DNA from: Escherichia phage vB_EcoM_JN03
Sequence record: OR885871
Direction: 5' to 3' (one strand)
Length of the DNA stretch: 64,000 nucleotides
In this document: positions 22,280 to 26,219 of the stretch, piece by piece
How the letters are laid out: each line of letters begins with the position of its first letter
Position numbering within the stretch: position 1 is the first letter of the stretch
Made by a program: the position numbers and the translations under genes
The notes under the pieces: model-generated
What the model was told of the DNA's origin: nothing
Database searches by the model: none
The model's input: the letters and a program-made list of their open reading frames with translations, nothing else

Positions 22280-22574
22280 AATAGACCTCCTTTACAAGTC
22301 AGATCTATTTATTATAGACAAAAAGAAGCCCGATCTTCCTGATCGGGCTATGGTTAAACCATCGTGGGGATGGAAAGACTACTCACAGCAATTTCTGGTA
22401 TTAGGCGTTTGGGAGAGTGCGTCGGGAATCGAACCCGAAATCGTCAGGACGTTGAAAGCTATTTGCATTTCACTTGCATATCCTGCGACTTTCTTAACTT
22501 CCTTAACCCCAGATTGTTATGAAGTCGGCATGCACACCTTCTTCATCTTCAGGAAGTCACACTCATTATTCTGA

Positions 22575-22660
22575 TTGCTTCAACTGGATTCGAACCAGTG
22601 ACCTCAGGCACCTTGTTCTCTCGAAACTTTCCTGCGCTCTACCACTGGAGCTATGAAGCA
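22575..22660 (-). ncRNA. tRNA-like element: canonical acceptor, D and T arms but a 36-nt region in place of the 17-nt anticodon arm
   Basis: Minus strand reads TGCTTCA-TA-GCTC-CAGTGGTA-GAGC-...-ACTGG-TTCGAAT-CCAGT-TGAAGCA-A; no 5-bp/7-nt anticodon stem-loop found by exhaustive sliding. Confidence 0.4.
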
Positions 22661-22663
22661 ATT

Positions 22664-22752
22664 TGGCGGAAGGTGAAGGATTCGAACCTTCGGGGGCTAA
22701 AAGCCCCACTCGATTAGCAGTCGAGTCCCTTAAACCTCTCGGGCAACCTTCC
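22664..22752 (-). tRNA. tRNA-Ser (anticodon GCT), type II with long variable arm
   Basis: Folded by hand: acceptor GGAAGGT/ACCTTCC, anticodon stem CTCGA/TCGAG, loop CTGCTAA, variable arm GGGGC-TTTTA-GCCCC, T-arm GAAGG-TTCGAAT-CCTTC, encoded CCA. Confidence 0.75.
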
Positions 22753-22968
22753 GTATACTGCGCTTCGGTCAAGAATTTTCCAAGCCATGACCTAAATCTG
22801 GGTTCTTGACCTGACCGAAACGACTTATTGGTGCTCGTTAGAGGATTTGAACCCCAGCACTCTGGTGATCAACCCAGAGAGTCGCGCCTCATCCATTTGT
22901 TAGCCTAAACGAGTCTTGCAAAACCCGCACCGACCGTCTACAAACAGACTGCTTGACCGAGCGTAATG

Positions 22969-23044
22969 TGGAAGGAGCACCAGGATTCGAACCTGAGATC
23001 GTGGGATCAAAACCCACTGCCTTAACCAACTTGGCTATGCTCCT
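22969..23044 (-). tRNA. tRNA-Gln (anticodon TTG)
   Basis: Acceptor AGGAGCA/TGCTCCT, anticodon stem GTGGG/CCCAC, loop TTTTGAT, T-loop TTCGAAT, encoded CCA. Confidence 0.7.
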
Positions 23045-23574
23045 AAATGCCGGAACCCGATTATTTCACCCGCTTCCTCAGCGCTCGGGTTAACACACTG
23101 CCTTACAGCTTCCACTCTCTTCGTTTCTCGGCTTCCAGAGAGTCTTATGGGCACAGCTGGCTGCAACGCTTACTGTGTCTGGTCTACCACCGCGTGCTGG
23201 GCCACGCTTGAGGACATCGGCCATCCTTCCTCAGCTAATCCACGCGGTGGTAGATTTGTATCAGAGTGTCCGGTGTAGCTTTCCGTGAGGTGCGCACTAC
23301 TGTAGCCTCTACACTCTGAATTTGGTGGGGGTTACTTTCGTCGGGTTCAGATTCCGTTCGGCTATTAGACGTCGCTCGAGAGAACTTGTCGTTCGCGTAC
23401 TTCGTGCTTACTTGCTTTCGTTTCACACCCATTGTTTGTCGTCGGGCGGGGGATTCAAACCCCAATCTTTAGTTTGTGTTTCTTCAAAGCTATCATATGT
23501 TCACTTTGAATACTAGACTCCCCTGGACATCAAAACAGGATCTCTATTCCATCCTGTAAGACCCGACATAATCC

Positions 23575-23650
23575 TGGCGACGATGGCAGGACTTGAACCT
23601 GCGACATATGGATTAACAGTCCACCGTTCTACCGACTGAACTACATCGTC
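23575..23650 (-). tRNA. tRNA-Asn (anticodon GTT)
   Basis: Acceptor GACGATG/CATCGTC, D-arm GTTC-AGTCGGTA-GAAC, anticodon loop CTGTTAA, T-arm GCAGG-TTCAAGT-CCTGC, encoded CCA. Confidence 0.75.
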
Positions 23651-23849
23651 ATTTATTCTTGTTCGCTTCGATCGCCCTTAATTGGGCGTCCGCGTCAGCT
23701 TTGGTGTCATGTGTCCCAAGAACTTTAGTCTTGGTGTGGTCAAGGACAACCCACTTATCGCCTCGCTTTTCAACAAACTCAACAATCTCTTTGTTGTCAG
23801 TAGCGAGACCATCCCACTCAGTAAGAAAATCACCGAACGTTTTCATCAT
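23649..23849 (-). CDS. small hydrophilic protein (66 aa) embedded in the tRNA cluster
   Basis: Start at MMKTFGDF with GGTGAG RBS; CTAAATA motif about 30 nt upstream; stop abuts tRNA-Asn. Confidence 0.4.
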   Translation of the reverse strand: MMKTFGDFLTEWDGLATDNKEIVEFVEKRGDKWVVLDHTKTKVLGTHDTKADADAQLRAIEANKNK

Positions 23850-23886
23850 ACTCACCAATTGTTTATTGAACAACTGGTTTATTTAG

Positions 23887-23962
23887 TGGTGACCCTGGCT
23901 GGACTTGAACCAGCGACCAATCGATTATGAGTCGACTGCTCTAACCACTGAGCTACGGGGCC
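23887..23962 (-). tRNA. tRNA-Met or tRNA-Ile (anticodon CAT)
   Basis: D-arm GCTC-AGTGGTTA-GAGC, anticodon stem GTCGA/TCGAT, loop CTCATAA, T-arm GCTGG-TTCAAGT-CCAGC, encoded CCA; one C-A mismatch in acceptor stem. Confidence 0.65.
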
Positions 23963-24286
23963 AAAATTTGGCGGGGTCTGAGGATTTTCACCTCTCCTTG
24001 CTGGTTTGGCCGCCAGCCTGTTCTCTCTGGGGACTCGCTGTCCGGACAGCTGTCCCTTAAACTATCGCCCCATAATTTATTGTGTGACCAACCAAGGTCT
24101 CTCAACCCTTTATCCCGTTTGTGCATGATCAGTTCATGCATGCCTGTTTGTGCGCCTCACGGCAACGCGCTTCTGTGGGTCTTTGGCTTGCACCGTAGCC
24201 TCACCACAGGCGTTTATTTTTCCAGGGCTTTCCACTTGCAAGTCTTAACCATACAGGGATACGGGCTTGCAAGATCGGGTTGGACA

Positions 24287-24364
24287 CAACTTTGATGGCT
24301 CTGGTACTAAAGATCCCGCGTCACCCATAGACATGGTTTATAAAATCCAGAGCCATCAAAGTTG
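24287..24364. repeat. perfect 18-bp inverted repeat (CAACTTTGATGGCTCTGG) with 42-nt spacer
   Basis: Arms 24287-24304 and 24347-24364 are exact reverse complements; lies in ORF-poor island. Confidence 0.7.
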
Positions 24365-24743
24365 CAACCAAATGTCACAACTCGCATTCAATGTCTTCGT
24401 CACACCGAATACTTGTCCTCTATCGCTCGGACCAAACGAGGCTGGCCGAAGAAACAAAACACCACTCAACACTAGAGCGAGGATGTGGTTGATAGCCACG
24501 ATGTAATGTCTCTATCGAAGAGTGATCACACTTGTCAGATGATCACTGTTTTGCGAACTCGAGAATACTGCGCCTGTCTCGGGTTTCCCCTTAGTTCGGC
24601 CTCTCATTGTTCATCCGGTCAGGGAGCTACCCTTGATGACCAGCTTATATTGAGATCTTCGCCAGCGCCCACCAGTGTCTAGAATGTGTAGGCGTCGAGG
24701 TCTGCAAGGCATTGCCCTATTTCATACAACGCTCTCTCAAGTA

Positions 24744-24877
24744 CGCAAATCGAAGTTCTCTGGGCTTAACAGGTTCGACCCAACATGTTGTATATCGCCT
24801 AACTTACTCATGGGACGGCCACTTCTGTGTACAGACCTTGAGGGTTAAAAGATATACCCAAAGAACTTCGATTTGCG
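24744..24877. repeat. 21-bp inverted repeat (20/21 match) with ~92-nt spacer
   Basis: Left arm CGCAAATCGAAGTTCTCTGGG at 24744-24764, right arm CCCAAAGAACTTCGATTTGCG at 24857-24877. Confidence 0.65.
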
Positions 24878-25028
24878 TTGTGGGGGCAAACCCCCACACG
24901 GCTACTTCTTTGACAGGGATTGCTAGCCCTGGGGATTCCACTGTTTAAGGCTTTATCCCATAACGCCCGAGGCGCGTTTTAACTTATTGAAGCTTGCATA
25001 ACTGCAAACTGATGCGCTGTGAGACACA

Positions 25029-25153
25029 TCTTTGAGGGCACTCAGTGTACAACAGGCTCCGATATTTCATAGGGCATTACTGCCTCGGATTTAAGTTGCC
25101 TTTCTCCTGAAACTCCATACAGTCTCGCGTCTGACGCGGAATGCCCTCAAAGA
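25029..25153. repeat. 13-bp inverted repeat with ~100-nt spacer
   Basis: ATCTTTGAGGGCA ... TGCCCTCAAAGAT; spacer contains a CGCG-TCTGA-CGCG hairpin. Confidence 0.5.
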
Positions 25154-26219
25154 TATGGAGCCGTTTTAGGGAGTCGAACCCAAATGCTTGGCCAGCGCTG
25201 ACCTTACATCCCATCTGACTTAGGCAACCCACCTCTGCTTACTCAGGAGCTTATCCCCTTTGGACAGTCAGATATAACGGCTTTGGGATTGGAGGAAGGA
25301 CTCGAACCTTCTCATGTACGCTCCTGATTTCTCAGAAGTAGTCTGCTCCCATCGACCTATTAAGTACACGCTCCGCTCATTGTCGGCGGGAGATTATTAA
25401 TCACACCCTCCCGCCTATTTTAGTGCGCCGAATTTTGTTATGAGGAATCGGAAGACCTCACTGGTGTATGGCTATTAAGCTACTGCCAGGAACGTGTTAT
25501 CATTAGCGATTATTTTTGTGGTCAGTTTCTAAAAACCCGCAAAGTCACGCACAACGAAAACGAAAACCTGTTTGAGTCCTAAACCTACCTGTCTTGGTCT
25601 CACATCGCTATGAGTGGCCAGGACTCAAACAGCTTGCCGTTCAGTGAGTTAACTATACTTTGTAACCCGTTATTGATAAAACCTTTTATTTTGTTGGCGA
25701 GGGTGCGGAATCGAACCACACTTCTGAGCGCTACCCCGTGTCACCAATGCACCACCTCACCATCGATTTGCCGGAACTTACGCATCCGGCCTCGTCCTGT
25801 CGGTGTTCTTCTGAATCCGGGAAGATCAGCAGGAACTATGAATCAAGTTAATTCAACCAACAGGAATCCTCTTGTTGCCCTTTGACGCAACATTATGAAC
25901 CCTCTATGAAGACTCATAATGTTGTCGGCGTGATGGAGATTAGCGCCCCCGACCTCCCCTTATATGTTGGTGTCAACTTGCCAACAGGGTGCTCTCTGAT
26001 TCTGAGCTAATCACGCTACAACAGGGAGTTTCGTTCTCCGACGGTCAAGTGCGTCCACTGACACCAGCGAGGTGGCTATTACGCCTCTATTCACACAAGC
26101 CCCTGAGACTAGGGGTTAACTGGTTTTGGGCTGCAAACCCGACTCCCACTGTGTTATTTCCCTCATGTTTAATACTTTACCGCAGCCCAGCTAATTTGAA
26201 AAGTCCTCTCCCCTTTGAG

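What the first reader, a model, noticed from the sequence alone, without database searches (positions are those of the whole stretch)
22410..25725. Orphan tRNA 3' modules (T-arm plus acceptor strand, some with CCA) lacking matching 5' halves
Minus-strand T-arm signatures with good stems occur near 22426 (TCGGG-TTCGATT-CCCGA), 22843 (TTCAAAT loop, followed by AACGAGC-A-CCA), 25172 (TTCGACT, followed by AAACGGC-T-CCA), 25300 (GAAGG-TTCGAGT-CCTTC, followed by CTCCAAT-C-CCA) and 25709 (TTCGATT). I could not find a complementary 5' acceptor strand at tRNA distance for any of them. They may be decayed or intron-containing tRNAs, split tRNAs, or tRNA-derived structural elements.
Basis: seen in the sequence. 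Interest (0 to 1): 0.5.

Follow-up and report, generated by a model that had tools for sequence, protein, structure and literature searches.

The report
Phage tRNA-like modules plus SsrA-tag RNA
The "orphan" tRNA ends are real parts of a string of tRNA-shaped non-coding RNAs in a Salmonella phage, and between them lies an RNA that carries a tmRNA-style degradation-tag template but, in place of a tRNA end of its own, has a stretch complementary to the host's ribosome-rescue RNA (tmRNA).

Summary
The window is a Kuttervirus (Ackermannviridae) genome. All five T-arm signatures are present as described: GGTTCRANTCC occurs 12 times against 0.31 expected, and 10 of these lie on the minus strand of 22425-25717. 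They are not orphans. Four have their own 5' acceptor strand (at 67, 87, 126 and 155 nt) and the fifth has a 4-bp closing stem. I found two more such modules. Default tRNA software rejects all of them because the D/anticodon region is expanded or replaced. One module (22575-22661) is a tRNA-Ile whose anticodon arm was swapped for a hairpin that also occurs in lambdoid prophages. Together with four true tRNAs, they form a roughly 3.3-kb non-coding cluster with mosaic cassettes, resembling T4 species 1 RNA.

At 25385-25567 lies a widespread phage RNA: in over 120 viral contigs, several phage families, and prophages in 143 of 5426 E. coli genomes. It has a 10-codon SsrA-like tag frame (ANDNTFLAVA), the tmRNA frame-setting U-5/A-4, helix 5 and two covarying pseudoknots, but no tRNA-like domain. 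Its invariant 5' 35-40 nt are antisense to host tmRNA nt 64-105 (-38 kcal/mol).

I infer, without direct evidence, that the modules are tRNA scaffolds and processing punctuation, and that the tag RNA docks on host tmRNA.

The parts
25695..25761 (-). Acceptor GGUGAGG/CCUCGCC-A, T-arm GUGUGG-UUCGAUU-CCGCAC, no anticodon stem. Lies upstream of the tag-RNA promoter.
   Evidence: ARAGORN at the 80% threshold calls tRNA-Ala(agc) at 25696-25765; annotated tRNA-Ala in some GenBank records; 6 variants, 78/78 cells paired, 3 wobble-type changes. Absent in Taipeivirus and replaced by another T-arm module in L109/L050.
25652..25679 (-). Sigma-70-type promoter of the tag RNA: TTATCA-16-TATAGT here, TTGTCA-N17-TATAGT in other genera.
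   Evidence: Conserved across Kuttervirus, Taipeivirus, Agtrevirus and Limestonevirus.
25567..25633 (-). 5' hairpin of the Ackermannviridae tag RNA (GCUGUUUGAGUCCU.../...AGGACUCAAACAGG).
   Evidence: -32.4 kcal/mol, z -5.9; I5. The same position holds a different long-stem cassette in lambdoid phages and nothing in the 47-kb siphoviruses.
25527..25567 (-). Antisense segment GUUUUCGUUUUCGUUGUGCGUGACUUUGCGGGUUUUUAGAA, complementary to host tmRNA nt 64-105 (3' strands of PK1, linker, resume codon, first five codons).
   Evidence: -38.0 kcal/mol; 51/53 variants pair with nt 64-105; 5 of 14480 background windows are as good; target nearly invariant in enterobacterial tmRNAs. These are the most conserved columns of alignment A1.
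25472..25526 (-). Linker with U(-5) A(-4), then the tag reading frame GCU AAU GAU AAC ACG UUC CUG GCA GUA GCU UAA UAG = ANDNTFLAVA**.
   Evidence: Codons 1, 2, 7 and 10 show only synonymous changes, and 123 of 125 copies have U-5/A-4. Role of U85/A86: PMC2481249.
25385..25489 (-). Helix 5 around the stop codons (25461-25489) and two H-type pseudoknots: PKa 25428-25460 and PKb 25385-25427.
   Evidence: 19 pairs, 99.8% paired, 8 pairs with changes on both sides, none with one-sided change; slid controls 32-47%. (at least 7 complementary variants of PKb stem 2).
25284..25374 (-). An optional cassette directly after the tag RNA.
   Evidence: the L106/L050 allele has CAGGUGC/GCACCCUG and T stem GGAGG/CCUCC, i.e. 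compensatory changes. Absent in L076, L109 and Gloob; replaced by a long-stem cassette in May, L099 and L063.
25156..25281 (-). Acceptor GCCGUU/AACGGC, discriminator U, encoded CCA. Extended D-position arm (AUCUGACU/AGUCAGAU), 11-bp arm with a GCGC loop in the anticodon position, and a T-arm.
   Evidence: fold; 13 variants; acceptor and both extended arms 324 of 325 cells paired, all changes wobble-compatible; the weak second pair of the T stem is U.U in 12 of 13; 94-98% identity across genera; absent in L109 and Gloob.
25025..25156 (-). M4: long-stem cassette (AUCUUUGAGGGCA.../...UGCCCUCAAAGAU).
   Evidence: (-55.9 kcal/mol, z -6.6). Alleles at this position covary: AUCUUAGAGGACA/UGUCCUCUAAGAU and AUCUGGGAGGUAUC/GAUACCUCCCAGAU, and some carry a T-arm next to the 3' strand.
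23887..23962 (-). tRNA-Met(CAT).
23575..23650 (-). tRNA-Asn(GTT).
23440..23567 (-). Acceptor GUCGGGU/GCCCGAC (7/7), T-arm GGGG-UUUGAAU-CCCC.
   Evidence: the Dickeya copy has AGGG/CCCU, a compensatory change; the acceptor is 28/28 cells paired.
22969..23044 (-). tRNA-Gln(TTG).
22829..22967 (-). Its 3' part (22829-22915) is tRNA-like: ACUCGUU/AACGAGC 6/7, stem CUCUGG/CCAGAG with an 8-nt loop, T-arm, A-CCA. The 5' block 22913-22967 is invariant even in a Dickeya phage.
   Evidence: The acceptor pairing is not kept in L041 or Dickeya, so its closure is uncertain.
22664..22752 (-). tRNA-Ser(GCT).
22575..22661 (-). M7: a tRNA-Ile-derived scaffold. The anticodon arm is replaced by CAGG-AAAGUUUCGAGAGAACAAGGUG-CCUG (payload at 22605-22634).
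   Evidence: annotated tRNA-OTHER/Undet. L135 has tRNA-Ile(GAT) here with the same acceptor, D and T arms; the payload motif is also in 12 lambdoid-prophage-type loci.
22410..22564 (-). Acceptor GAGUGUG/CGCACUC, D-like stem, ~95-nt body, T-arm UCGGG-UUCGAUU-CCCGA, conserved tail UCCCA.
   Evidence: acceptor variants GGGUGCG/CGCACUC, GGGCGUG/CGCGCUC, GGGUGAU/GUCACUC and CGGGCUG/CGGCUCG, with T stems UCAGG/CCUGA and GCGGG/CCCGC; colinear identities with E. coli tmRNA 41-51, 86-92, 327-343; the tmRNA CM sees only the T-arm.
22319..22349 (-). Intrinsic terminator that ends the non-coding cluster.

Best explanation
The five T-arm/acceptor signatures are the 3' portions of complete but non-canonical tRNA-shaped RNAs. 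They are tRNA- or tmRNA-derived scaffolds in which the D/anticodon region is expanded or replaced. They lie with four true tRNAs in a ~3.3-kb, almost protein-free, minus-strand cluster (about 25680 to 22320) of a Kuttervirus.

Shown: each module is there and far above chance. Four of the five have their own 5' strand. Their stems are maintained by wobble and compensatory substitutions. They behave as exchangeable cassettes between related phages. One of them is demonstrably a tRNA-Ile with its anticodon arm swapped for a payload hairpin.

Inferred: the acceptor/T-arm minihelix recruits the host tRNA-processing machinery (RNase P at the 5' end, 3' trimming, CCA maintenance). Each module would then be cut out of a polycistronic precursor as a stable small RNA, and would at the same time define the ends of its neighbours (tRNA punctuation, or a natural tRNA scaffold), as known for T4 species 1 RNA.

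The neighbour that M1 and M2 flank is an SsrA-tag RNA at 25385-25567. Shown: it has a conserved 10-codon degron frame, the tmRNA frame-setting U-5/A-4, helix 5 and two covarying pseudoknots. It has no tRNA-like domain of its own. Its invariant 5' segment is complementary to host tmRNA nt 64-105. Inferred: it anneals to host tmRNA, masks the host resume codon, and either substitutes its own tag template on the host's alanyl-TLD/SmpB or simply blocks it.
For: Identity of the window: 98.6-99% identity to Kuttervirus genomes.

Motif enrichment: 12 observed against 0.31 expected.

5' strands and folds.

Stem maintenance: M8 acceptor in five sequence versions, all pairing. M3: acceptor and both extended arms 324 of 325 cells paired, with wobble-type changes only; the weak second pair of its T stem is U.U in 12 of 13. 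M1 78/78 cells paired. M2 T stem GAAGG/CCUUC versus GGAGG/CCUCC, and inner stem CGUGUAC/GUACAUG versus CAGGUGC/GCACCCUG. M5 GGGG/CCCC versus AGGG/CCCU.

Cassette behaviour: presence, absence or replacement of M1, M2 and M3 at the same junctions in different genera.

tRNA origin: M7 versus tRNA-Ile(GAU) in L135. The same payload sits in a different tRNA-like domain of lambdoid prophages.

Known analogue: T4 rnaC, annotated 'small stable RNA, species 1', lies in the T4 tRNA cluster and folds as closing stem + two long arms + T-arm.

Tag RNA: tags all 10 codons long; A1, N2, L7 and A10 change only synonymously. Structure covariation 99.8% paired with 8 doubly changed pairs. U-5/A-4 in 123 of 125 copies, matching the U85/A86 requirement (PMC2481249). 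Antisense duplex with E. coli tmRNA nt 64-105 in 51 of 53 variants, mean -34.6 kcal/mol, against -21.6 for the same segment with its own RNA. Only 0-5 of 14480 background windows are as good. The target is nearly invariant in enterobacterial tmRNAs, and only the bulged A-run varies in length.

No obligatory T-arm partner.
Against: There are no expression, end-mapping or interaction data, so all processing and docking steps are inferred. Folding energies of M1, M2 and M3 are not better than shuffles (z -0.5 to -0.7). Covariation for the modules rests on 4-13 closely related sequences and is mostly wobble-type. The M6 acceptor pairing is not conserved. M2 has only a 4-bp closure. The long-stem cassettes suggest RNase III rather than RNase P processing for part of the cluster. 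For the tag RNA, the antisense match was found after tmRNA had been chosen as the candidate target. The background set was GC-rich foreign genomes rather than the host transcriptome. I could not fetch the Salmonella tmRNA sequence; from memory it differs at one target position (GAAACC for GAAAAC). Co-variation with a divergent host tmRNA (Erwinia) could not be tested. Annealing would disrupt PK1 of host tmRNA, and it is unknown whether such a hybrid is competent on the ribosome.
Confidence: 0.55

Rival explanations
1. The modules are decaying tRNA genes and recombination debris. They would be pseudogenes left by turnover of a larger tRNA array, or 3' tRNA fragments of the kind duplicated at integration sites, with no function of their own.
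For: The cluster is mosaic and tRNA content varies between phages: Tyr, Ile and a second Ser or Tyr are present or absent. M7 clearly descends from tRNA-Ile. Several modules do not fold better than shuffles. M6's acceptor pairing is not conserved.
Against: The modules are 94-99% identical across genera whose flanks are replaced. No substitution breaks an acceptor or T stem in M1, M5 or M8, or the acceptor and extended arms of M3, and several are compensatory. M7's new arm is a defined motif shared with lambdoid prophages, not random decay. M8 relatives occur in T5-sized and jumbo-phage contigs. Kuttervirus phages are virulent, so att-site duplication is not expected (general knowledge).
Confidence: 0.1
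2. They are intron-containing, split or permuted tRNAs that become normal tRNAs after splicing or assembly.
For: With introns allowed and a 90% threshold, ARAGORN reports tRNA-Glu(ttc) with a 74-nt intron at 22412-22564 and tRNA-Pro(agg) with a 15-nt intron at 22573-22661.
Against: Bacterial and phage tRNA introns are self-splicing group I introns of about 200 nt or more (general knowledge), and Rfam finds none here even at E<=10. The 'anticodon stems' offered by ARAGORN are weak. In M7 the whole anticodon stem-loop is replaced, not interrupted. No matching 5' halves are found elsewhere in the window.
Confidence: 0.03
3. The phage encodes a self-sufficient tmRNA. In this view the tag RNA is the coding part and one of the phage T-arm modules (M1, M2, M3 or M8) is its tRNA-like domain, either as one piece, as a permuted gene, or as a base-paired two-piece RNA.
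For: At an 80% threshold ARAGORN calls a tmRNA at 25284-25748 (5' ATTGGTG, 3' CTCCAAT-C-CCA) and a permuted one. There are weak Rfam tmRNA_permuted hits (20.6 and 27 bits). In three families a CCA-ending tRNA-like module follows the core within ~100 nt: M2 here, an M8-type module in L082, and a G3:U70/A73 module in a Felix-O1-like phage. M8 shares colinear sequence blocks with tmRNA, and a jumbo-phage copy has a tmRNA-like acceptor with G3:U70.
Against: No module is consistently linked to the core: Gloob has none after it, L109 has none, and L076 lacks M2. The ARAGORN 5' strand has a mismatch and lies inside M1. The L082 long-range pairing is superseded by a local, covarying 5' strand. GCUGUUU/AAACGGC conflicts with the strong local hairpin. 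No G3:U70 is present in any window module. No complementarity was found between the core and M8. Scores are far below the Rfam gathering thresholds.
Confidence: 0.2
4. The tag RNA is only an antisense inhibitor or decoy of host trans-translation, for example a guide for RNase III cleavage of tmRNA or a sponge for S1 or SmpB, and its tag frame is never decoded.
For: A ~35-bp duplex with tmRNA nt 64-105 would occlude the resume codon and is a plausible RNase III substrate. A CDS-less tmRNA form from phage DS6A is reported to inhibit endogenous tmRNA when expressed in E. coli (PMC11915505).
Against: Peptide-level selection on the tag: codons 1, 2, 7 and 10 change only synonymously, ANDNTFLAVA is encoded in two ways that differ at four codons, the frame is always 10 codons, and there are often double stops. 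The frame-setting U-5/A-4 is conserved. A pure antisense RNA would need none of these.
Confidence: 0.2

Closest known systems
Phage T4 species 1 and 2 RNAs (rnaC, rnaD)
   Same: These are small stable RNAs of unknown function that lie in and are co-oriented with the phage tRNA cluster. rnaC (139 nt) folds as a closing stem, two long arms and a canonical T-arm (CCGGG-UUCGAAU-CCCGG) next to the 3' strand, which is the architecture of M3, M5 and M8. From memory of the 1970s literature, their maturation depends on the tRNA-processing enzymes.
   Different: No sequence similarity was seen. The window has at least seven such modules, with mosaic presence and absence. Some carry encoded CCA. One is traceably derived from tRNA-Ile.
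Bacterial tmRNA (SsrA), standard one-piece form
   Same: The tag RNA has a GCN resume codon preceded by U-5/A-4, a 10-codon tag (ANDNTFLAVA against ANDENYALAA), stop codons inside a helix-5-like hairpin, and downstream H-type pseudoknots.
   Different: It has no tRNA-like domain, no G3:U70 acceptor and no PK1, and only two small pseudoknots. Its 5' end is antisense to the host tmRNA. It scores 20.6 bits against a gathering score of 47.
Two-piece (circularly permuted) tmRNA of Alpha-/Betaproteobacteria and Cyanobacteria
   Same: The template and the acceptor function reside on separate RNA molecules held together by base pairing (PMC11915505).
   Different: There both pieces come from one gene of the same genome, and both contribute strands to the acceptor stem. 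Here the proposed partner is the complete tmRNA of the host, and the pairing is to its template region.
CDS-less tmRNA forms (for example mycobacteriophage DS6A)
   Same: These are phage-encoded, tmRNA-derived RNAs that lack a tag frame, and one is reported to inhibit the endogenous tmRNA (PMC11915505). M8 may be of this kind: TLD-like ends and tmRNA-like sequence blocks.
   Different: M8 is ~155 nt rather than ~65, has no G3:U70 in Kuttervirus, and is not recognised by the tmRNA covariance models.
Engineered 'tRNA scaffold' RNAs and tRNA-like 3' processing elements (mascRNA; mitochondrial tRNA punctuation)
   Same: In these, a tRNA body with the anticodon arm replaced by a payload confers processing and stability, or a tRNA-like fold marks a cleavage site for RNase P (general knowledge). 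M7 is exactly a tRNA with its anticodon arm replaced.
   Different: Those are laboratory constructs or eukaryotic and organellar cases. A natural phage cassette system of this type has not, to my knowledge, been described.

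Membership tests
canonical tRNA | Passes tRNA detectors (ARAGORN default, Rfam RF00005 gathering score of 29 bits) | tested here: not met
   Only Ser, Gln, Asn and Met pass. The modules appear only at 80-90% ARAGORN thresholds.
canonical tRNA | 5-bp T stem with a 7-nt UUCRANY loop directly followed by the 3' acceptor strand | tested here: met
canonical tRNA | 7-bp acceptor stem closed by a 5' strand about 65-85 nt upstream | tested here: inconclusive
   M1 7/7 at 67 nt, M7 7/7 at 87 nt, M6 6/7 at 87 nt. M3, M5 and M8 are closed at 126-155 nt. 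M2 has only 4 bp.
canonical tRNA | Anticodon arm: 5-bp stem and 7-nt loop | tested here: not met
   Absent or replaced in every module: 22-nt loop in M7, 8-nt loop in M6, GCGC tetraloop arm in M3.
tmRNA (for the 25385-25567 RNA) | tRNA-like domain with T-arm, G3:U70 acceptor and CCA, formed by the RNA's own ends | tested here: not met
   In siphoviruses and L082 the RNA starts at or near GUUUUCG. The neighbouring T-arm modules are optional and self-closed. There is no G3:U70 in the window.
tmRNA (for the 25385-25567 RNA) | Resume codon with the conserved upstream U85/A86 equivalent | tested here: met
   AUAAUC|GCU here and AUAAAU|GCA elsewhere. U-5/A-4 in 123 of 125 copies and C-5 in 2. The requirement is taken from PMC2481249.
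tmRNA (for the 25385-25567 RNA) | Short tag frame encoding a C-terminal hydrophobic degron and ending in stop codon(s) | tested here: met
   12 tag peptides, all 10 codons: AN[DES]x3-4L[AMI][AV]A. There are synonymous-only positions.
tmRNA (for the 25385-25567 RNA) | Helix 5 and pseudoknots supported by covariation | tested here: met
   However, there are two pseudoknots rather than three downstream, and no PK1.
tmRNA (for the 25385-25567 RNA) | Reaches the Rfam tmRNA family thresholds | tested here: not met
   tmRNA_permuted 20.6 bits (gathering 47), beta_tmRNA 14.6 bits, tmRNA 10.5 bits. L004 scores 27 bits.
tmRNA (for the 25385-25567 RNA) | Alanylation, SmpB and EF-Tu binding, tagging activity | not testable with these tools
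   Needs biochemistry or proteomics.
trans-acting antisense RNA against host tmRNA | Extended, conserved complementarity to a conserved target site | tested here: met
trans-acting antisense RNA against host tmRNA | Co-variation of the antisense segment with the tmRNA of divergent hosts; duplex formed in vivo | not tested
   The Erwinia phage Bue1 variant GCGAUUAUGCGGG remains compatible with the E. coli target in another register, but the Erwinia tmRNA could not be retrieved (one search failed).
T4 rnaC-type tRNA-like stable RNA | Non-tRNA of 120-160 nt inside a phage tRNA cluster, on the same strand, with a closing stem and a T-arm at the 3' side | tested here: met
   M3, M5 and M8 compared with T4 rnaC.
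T4 rnaC-type tRNA-like stable RNA | Stable processed RNA species in infected cells | not testable with these tools
   No transcript data available.
group I intron-containing tRNA | Group I intron fold within the anticodon loop | tested here: not met
   No Intron_gpI hit at gathering score or at E<=10.
Y RNA-like (YrlA) tRNA mimics | Rfam YrlA/Y_RNA match; Ro-binding long stem in the anticodon position | tested here: not met
   No hit at E<=10. In the long-stem cassettes the T-arm abuts the 3' strand, i.e. the stem is in the acceptor position.

The most novel reading that the evidence does not exclude
Many enterobacterial phages encode a template-only 'parasitic tmRNA module'. These include Vi1-like, Felix-O1-like, 47-kb siphoviruses, lambdoid prophages, T5-sized phages and possibly P1-like phages. 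The RNA has no tRNA end. It anneals through its 5' 35-40 nt to nt 64-105 of the host's own tmRNA, masks the host resume codon, and presents its own U-5/A-4-GCN resume site. Ribosomes rescued by host Ala-tmRNA/SmpB would then add a phage-specified tag (ANDNTFLAVA, ANDDVVLMAA, ANEEMYLAVA and others) instead of ANDENYALAA. The accompanying tRNA-shaped cassettes would be natural tRNA scaffolds that process and stabilise this and other payload RNAs.
Probability: 0.3. Interest if true: 0.95.

Novelty: new variant of a known kind. Interest (0 to 1): 0.8.

Why it matters
If the modules are natural tRNA scaffolds, they give a comparative handle on T4 species 1 and 2 RNAs, whose function (from memory of the literature) has never been established. 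They would also show that phages trade small structured RNAs as cassettes in the same way they trade genes. The tag RNA matters more. It sits in some of the best-studied phage groups, including the Q-to-holin region of lambdoid prophages in 143 of 5426 complete E. coli genomes, yet appears to be unannotated and undescribed. It would be the first case of a virus re-programming or blocking bacterial ribosome rescue through an RNA that combines a tmRNA-type template with an antisense arm against the host tmRNA. The idea is directly testable by proteomics for the predicted tags and by RNA-RNA interaction mapping. It also bears on phage-therapy phages, since Kuttervirus and Felixounavirus are widely used.

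Tried and rejected
1. One-piece tmRNA at 25284-25748 (ARAGORN at the 80% threshold). Rejected: the 5' strand ATTGGTG has a mismatch, lies inside the self-closed M1, and M1 and M2 are optional cassettes.
2. One-piece tmRNA in contig L082 (GGAGTGA ... TCACTCT-C-CCA, 7/7). Rejected: the same T-arm has a local 5' strand (GGGTGAT) that covaries in homologues.
3. Closure GCUGUUU/AAACGGC around the whole tag RNA. Rejected: CUGUUU is already in a strong local hairpin, and AAACGGC resembles that hairpin's own partner AAACAGG.
4. M8 as the docking partner of the tag RNA. No strong duplex, and the candidate site is not conserved.
5. Rfam at E<=10 on the region and on M8. No known family beyond tRNA and weak tmRNA fragments.
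6. Hammerhead-like core seen by eye in L113. Not confirmed at gathering score.
7. Test of host co-variation through a predicted Erwinia tmRNA 15-mer in genome contigs.
8. Literature searches for phage tmRNA-like RNAs, for the tag peptides, and for antisense RNAs to tmRNA. Nothing relevant in the held library.
9. GGTTCGATTCC at 19059 and GGTTCAACTCC at 32599. These lie in coding sequence and are chance matches.
10. A frame open from GCA to the 3' CCA in M8. Noted by eye, but about 40% likely by chance per sequence, so not pursued.

Full report
WHAT THE WINDOW IS. The segment 22300-26400 is 98.6-99% identical to Kuttervirus genomes (Ackermannviridae, Vi1-like Salmonella/E. coli phages such as SenASZ3, S117, SFP10). 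Between a 189-aa ORF (26424-26993, minus) and a 77-aa ORF (22046-22279, minus) there is about 4 kb with almost no credible coding sequence. GenBank annotators place only tRNAs, one 'tRNA-OTHER/Undet' and scattered tiny 'hypothetical proteins' there.

THE OBSERVATION. ARAGORN and the Rfam tRNA model find four ordinary minus-strand tRNAs: Ser 22664-22752, Gln 22969-23044, Asn 23575-23650 and Met 23887-23962. The motif GGTTCRANTCC occurs 12 times in the window against 0.31 expected, and none of 100 shuffles reached 12. Ten of the 12 are on the minus strand between 22425 and 25717. The two outliers (19059, 32599) lie in ORFs. So the signal is real and strand- and region-specific.

THEY ARE NOT ORPHANS.
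- M1 (25695-25761) has GGUGAGG pairing 7/7 with CCUCGCC at ordinary tRNA distance. Some GenBank records call it tRNA-Ala.
- M6 (22829-22915) has ACUCGUU pairing 6/7 with AACGAGC.
- M3 (25156-25281) folds into a four-arm cloverleaf of 126 nt with acceptor GCCGUU/AACGGC-U-CCA.
- M8 (22410-22564) has GAGUGUG pairing 7/7 with CGCACUC across 155 nt.
- M2 (25284-25374) has only GGAG/CUCC plus an internal 7-bp stem.

ARE THE FOLDS SELECTED?
- Thermodynamics alone is weak for M1-M3 (z -0.5 to -0.7), so I relied on comparison.
- The M8 acceptor exists in five sequence versions that all pair. These are GAGUGUG/CGCACUC, GGGUGCG/CGCACUC, GGGCGUG/CGCGCUC, GGGUGAU/GUCACUC and CGGGCUG/CGGCUCG, with T stems UCGGG/CCCGA, UCAGG/CCUGA, CUGGG/CCCGG and GCGGG/CCCGC.
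- M3: in 13 variants the acceptor and both extended arms are paired in 324 of 325 cells, and every change is wobble-compatible. Its T stem has a weak second pair, U.U in 12 of 13.
- M1: 78/78 cells paired.
- M2: both the T stem (GAAGG/CCUUC against GGAGG/CCUCC) and the inner stem (CGUGUAC/GUACAUG against CAGGUGC/GCACCCUG) covary between alleles.
- M5: GGGG/CCCC becomes AGGG/CCCU in a Dickeya phage.
- M6 is the exception. Its centre and a 55-nt upstream block are invariant from Salmonella to Dickeya phages, but the acceptor pairing is not kept.

The sample is small and closely related, so this amounts to 'consistent with selection', not proof.

CASSETTES AND tRNA ORIGIN. Aligning 16 Ackermannviridae loci shows a mosaic.
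- M1 is present in Kuttervirus and Agtrevirus, absent in Taipeivirus, and replaced by another T-arm module in two contigs.
- M2 is present, absent, or replaced by a long-stem cassette.
- M3 is 94-98% conserved where present, but missing in two lineages.
- The following long-stem cassette (M4, 25025-25156; -55.9 kcal/mol, z -6.6) has alleles whose 13-16-bp stems differ by compensatory changes. Some of these carry a T-arm abutting the 3' strand.
- Relative to pSC20/S117 the window has cleanly lost tRNA-Tyr.

Most telling is M7. In contig L135 the homologous position holds tRNA-Ile(GAU) with the same acceptor, D and T arms. In the window the 17-nt anticodon stem-loop is replaced by CAGG-AAAGUUUCGAGAGAACAAGGUG-CCUG. 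The same motif (UUCGRRAGAACAAGGUGCC) sits in the anticodon position of a different tRNA-like domain (UGUGGUG...CACCACA) in 12 lambdoid-prophage-type loci. This is direct evidence for 'tRNA body used as a scaffold for a payload'.

CLOSEST KNOWN ANALOGUE OF THE MODULES. T4 rnaC ('species 1 RNA', 139 nt) and rnaD lie at the end of the T4 tRNA cluster. rnaC folds as closing stem + two long arms + CCGGG-UUCGAAU-CCCGG next to the 3' strand, the same plan as M3, M5 and M8. Function there is, to my knowledge, still unknown.

THE RNA BETWEEN M1 AND M2.
- A weak Rfam hit (tmRNA_permuted, 20.6 bits) and low-threshold ARAGORN calls pointed to a tag frame, GCU AAU GAU AAC ACG UUC CUG GCA GUA GCU UAA UAG = ANDNTFLAVA**.
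- blastn showed this ~170-nt core in hundreds of phage records. These include Kuttervirus, Taipeivirus, Agtrevirus, Nezavisimistyvirus, Felix-O1-like phages and 47-kb siphoviruses. Short matches also occur in P1-like and other phages.
- It is also present in prophages of 143 of 5426 complete E. coli genomes. In the one locus examined it lies between the Q antiterminator and the holin gene.
- A 20-nt pattern retrieved at least 120 IMG/VR contigs.
- All 125 copies encode a 10-codon tag (12 different peptides; ANDDVVLMAA, ANEEMYLAVA, ANDDLMLMAA, ANDEQFLAVA and ANDNTFLAVA are the commonest). Codons 1, 2, 7 and 10 vary only synonymously, and ANDNTFLAVA is encoded in two ways differing at four codons.
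- The six bases before the resume codon keep U at -5 and A at -4 in 123 of 125 copies. These are the positions of U85/A86, which set the frame on E. coli tmRNA (PMC2481249).
- On a 76-sequence alignment, helix 5 and three of the four pseudoknot stems are 99.8% paired. Eight pairs change on both sides and none on one side only, against 32-47% paired in slid controls. The fourth pseudoknot stem exists in at least seven complementary versions.

So this is a selected, structured RNA with a tmRNA-type template.

IT HAS NO tRNA-LIKE DOMAIN. In siphoviruses and L082 a consensus sigma-70 promoter puts the 5' end a few bases before the invariant GUUUUCG. In Ackermannviridae a conserved promoter (25652-25679) is followed by a hairpin and then GUUUUCG. 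The T-arm modules next to the core are optional and self-closed. I tested and rejected one-piece, permuted and M8-partner models (see the tried-and-rejected section).

THE 5' SEGMENT IS ANTISENSE TO HOST tmRNA.
- Comparing the core with E. coli ssrA showed plus/minus matches: UUUGCGGNUUUUUA to nt 68-81, GCGAC to nt 87-91 (GUC + GC of the resume codon), and GUUUUCGU(C) to nt 97-104.
- RNAduplex pairs the whole 31-41-nt segment of 51 of 53 variants with tmRNA nt 64-105. The mean is -34.6 kcal/mol (window -38.0), against -21.6 for the same segment with its own downstream RNA.
- Shuffled tmRNAs reach these values 0-1 times in 100.
- Only 0-5 of 14480 60-nt windows of unrelated bacterial DNA do.
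- These are the most conserved columns of the alignment although they are in no intramolecular helix.
- In 120 enterobacterial tmRNA copies flanking prophages, the target is nearly invariant. The exception is the length of the A-run, which is the part bulged out of the predicted duplex.
- Longer lambdoid variants (GUUUUCGUCACGUUAGCGAC) extend the pairing through codons 1-5 of the host tag.

MECHANISM (INFERRED). The published finding is that the tRNA-like domain is the only ribosome-binding element of tmRNA. PK1 and the template can be replaced, and the distance from PK1 to U85 is not critical (PMC2481249). On that basis, an RNA that anneals at nt 64-105 and offers its own U-5/A-4-GCN site about 20 nt further on could plausibly be read in place of the host template. 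That would be a tag swap. Alternatively it only blocks or destroys host tmRNA. The peptide-level selection on the tag favours decoding.

The T-arm and long-stem cassettes that follow the core in every family would define and protect its 3' end, through RNase P or RNase III respectively. They may also be functional RNAs in their own right. M8, for instance, shares colinear blocks with tmRNA (41-51, 86-92, 327-343) and a tmRNA-like 5' end (GNGNNUGAYUUC). A jumbo-phage copy has a G3:U70 acceptor, although covariance models do not recognise it.

NOVELTY. No hit for the tags, for phage 'tmRNA-like' RNAs, or for antisense RNAs to tmRNA was found in the held literature, and Rfam 15 has no family for the core or the modules. 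The modules are a new variant of a known kind (tRNA-like stable phage RNAs). The tag RNA would be categorically new if the docking model holds. All functional steps remain to be shown experimentally.

Noticed in passing
window 22828-22829 (minus strand): Relative to pSC20, S117 and Gloob, the window has a clean deletion of tRNA-Tyr(GTA) between two ...ACCA ends (junction GAGCACCA|ATAAGTC). The window in turn carries a tRNA-Gln that those phages lack at 22969-23044.
   Followed up: partly
window 24743-24878, 24280-24371, 23183-23254: Further long, near-perfect hairpins (22, 25 and 14 bp) in the non-coding cluster, conserved as blocks in other Ackermannviridae. They may be RNase III-type cassettes, and their inserts are uncharacterised.
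   Followed up: no
window 22605-22634; L003 4270-4310 and 11 other prophage loci: The payload hairpin of M7 (UUCGRRAGAACAAGGUGCC) is shared between Kuttervirus and lambdoid prophages, in two different tRNA-like scaffolds. It contains CAAGGUGC, identical to E. coli tmRNA nt 37-44.
   Followed up: partly
L003, L007, L008, L011, L014-L016 etc. (lambdoid and siphovirus loci): Around the tag core these phages carry repeated cassettes with the same stem sequence, CACAACAGGUAAGAGCAUU-[variable insert]-CAGUGCUCUUUCCGUUGUGG, which has a conserved U.U mismatch. Inserts often contain AUGCGAAAG or a T-arm. The stems are conserved in sequence, not just in pairing, which is unexplained.
   Followed up: no
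L129 2683-2772 (Felix-O1-like phage): Directly after its tag core there is a tRNA-like element with a weak tRNA CM hit (31.7 bits). By hand fold, the acceptor is CGGGGCG/CGCCUCG-A-CCA carrying G3:U70 and A73, the alanine identity set, and there is no normal D arm.
   Followed up: partly
L276 863-1024 (310-kb jumbo-phage contig): An M8 homologue with acceptor CGGGCUG/CGGCUCG-C-CCA (G3:U70) and a 5' end resembling that of tmRNA (GGGCUGACUCC). This suggests the M8 family descends from a tmRNA tRNA-like domain.
   Followed up: partly
L126 3500-3960 (Dickeya phage Ds16CZ): Limestonevirus keeps the promoter and the start of the first hairpin of the tag-RNA locus, but the tag core itself is replaced by unrelated sequence.
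   Followed up: no
window 23649-23873 (minus strand): A 74-aa ORF sits between tRNA-Met and tRNA-Asn and is annotated as a hypothetical protein in relatives. It is the only plausible protein gene inside the RNA cluster.
   Followed up: no
window 22913-22967 (minus strand): A 55-nt block upstream of M6 (AUUACGCUCGGUCAAGCAGUCUGUUUGUAGACGGUCGGU...) is identical between Salmonella and Dickeya phages. That is far more conserved than the surrounding genome, which suggests a sequence-specific function.
   Followed up: no
window 19059-19069 (minus) and 32599-32609 (plus): Two further GGTTCRANTCC matches lie inside ORFs, with no acceptor context. They are chance matches.
   Followed up: yes
phage records P7 (71216-71263) and SJ46: P1-like phages give short (48-69 nt) blastn matches to the linker and tag part of the core.
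   Followed up: no
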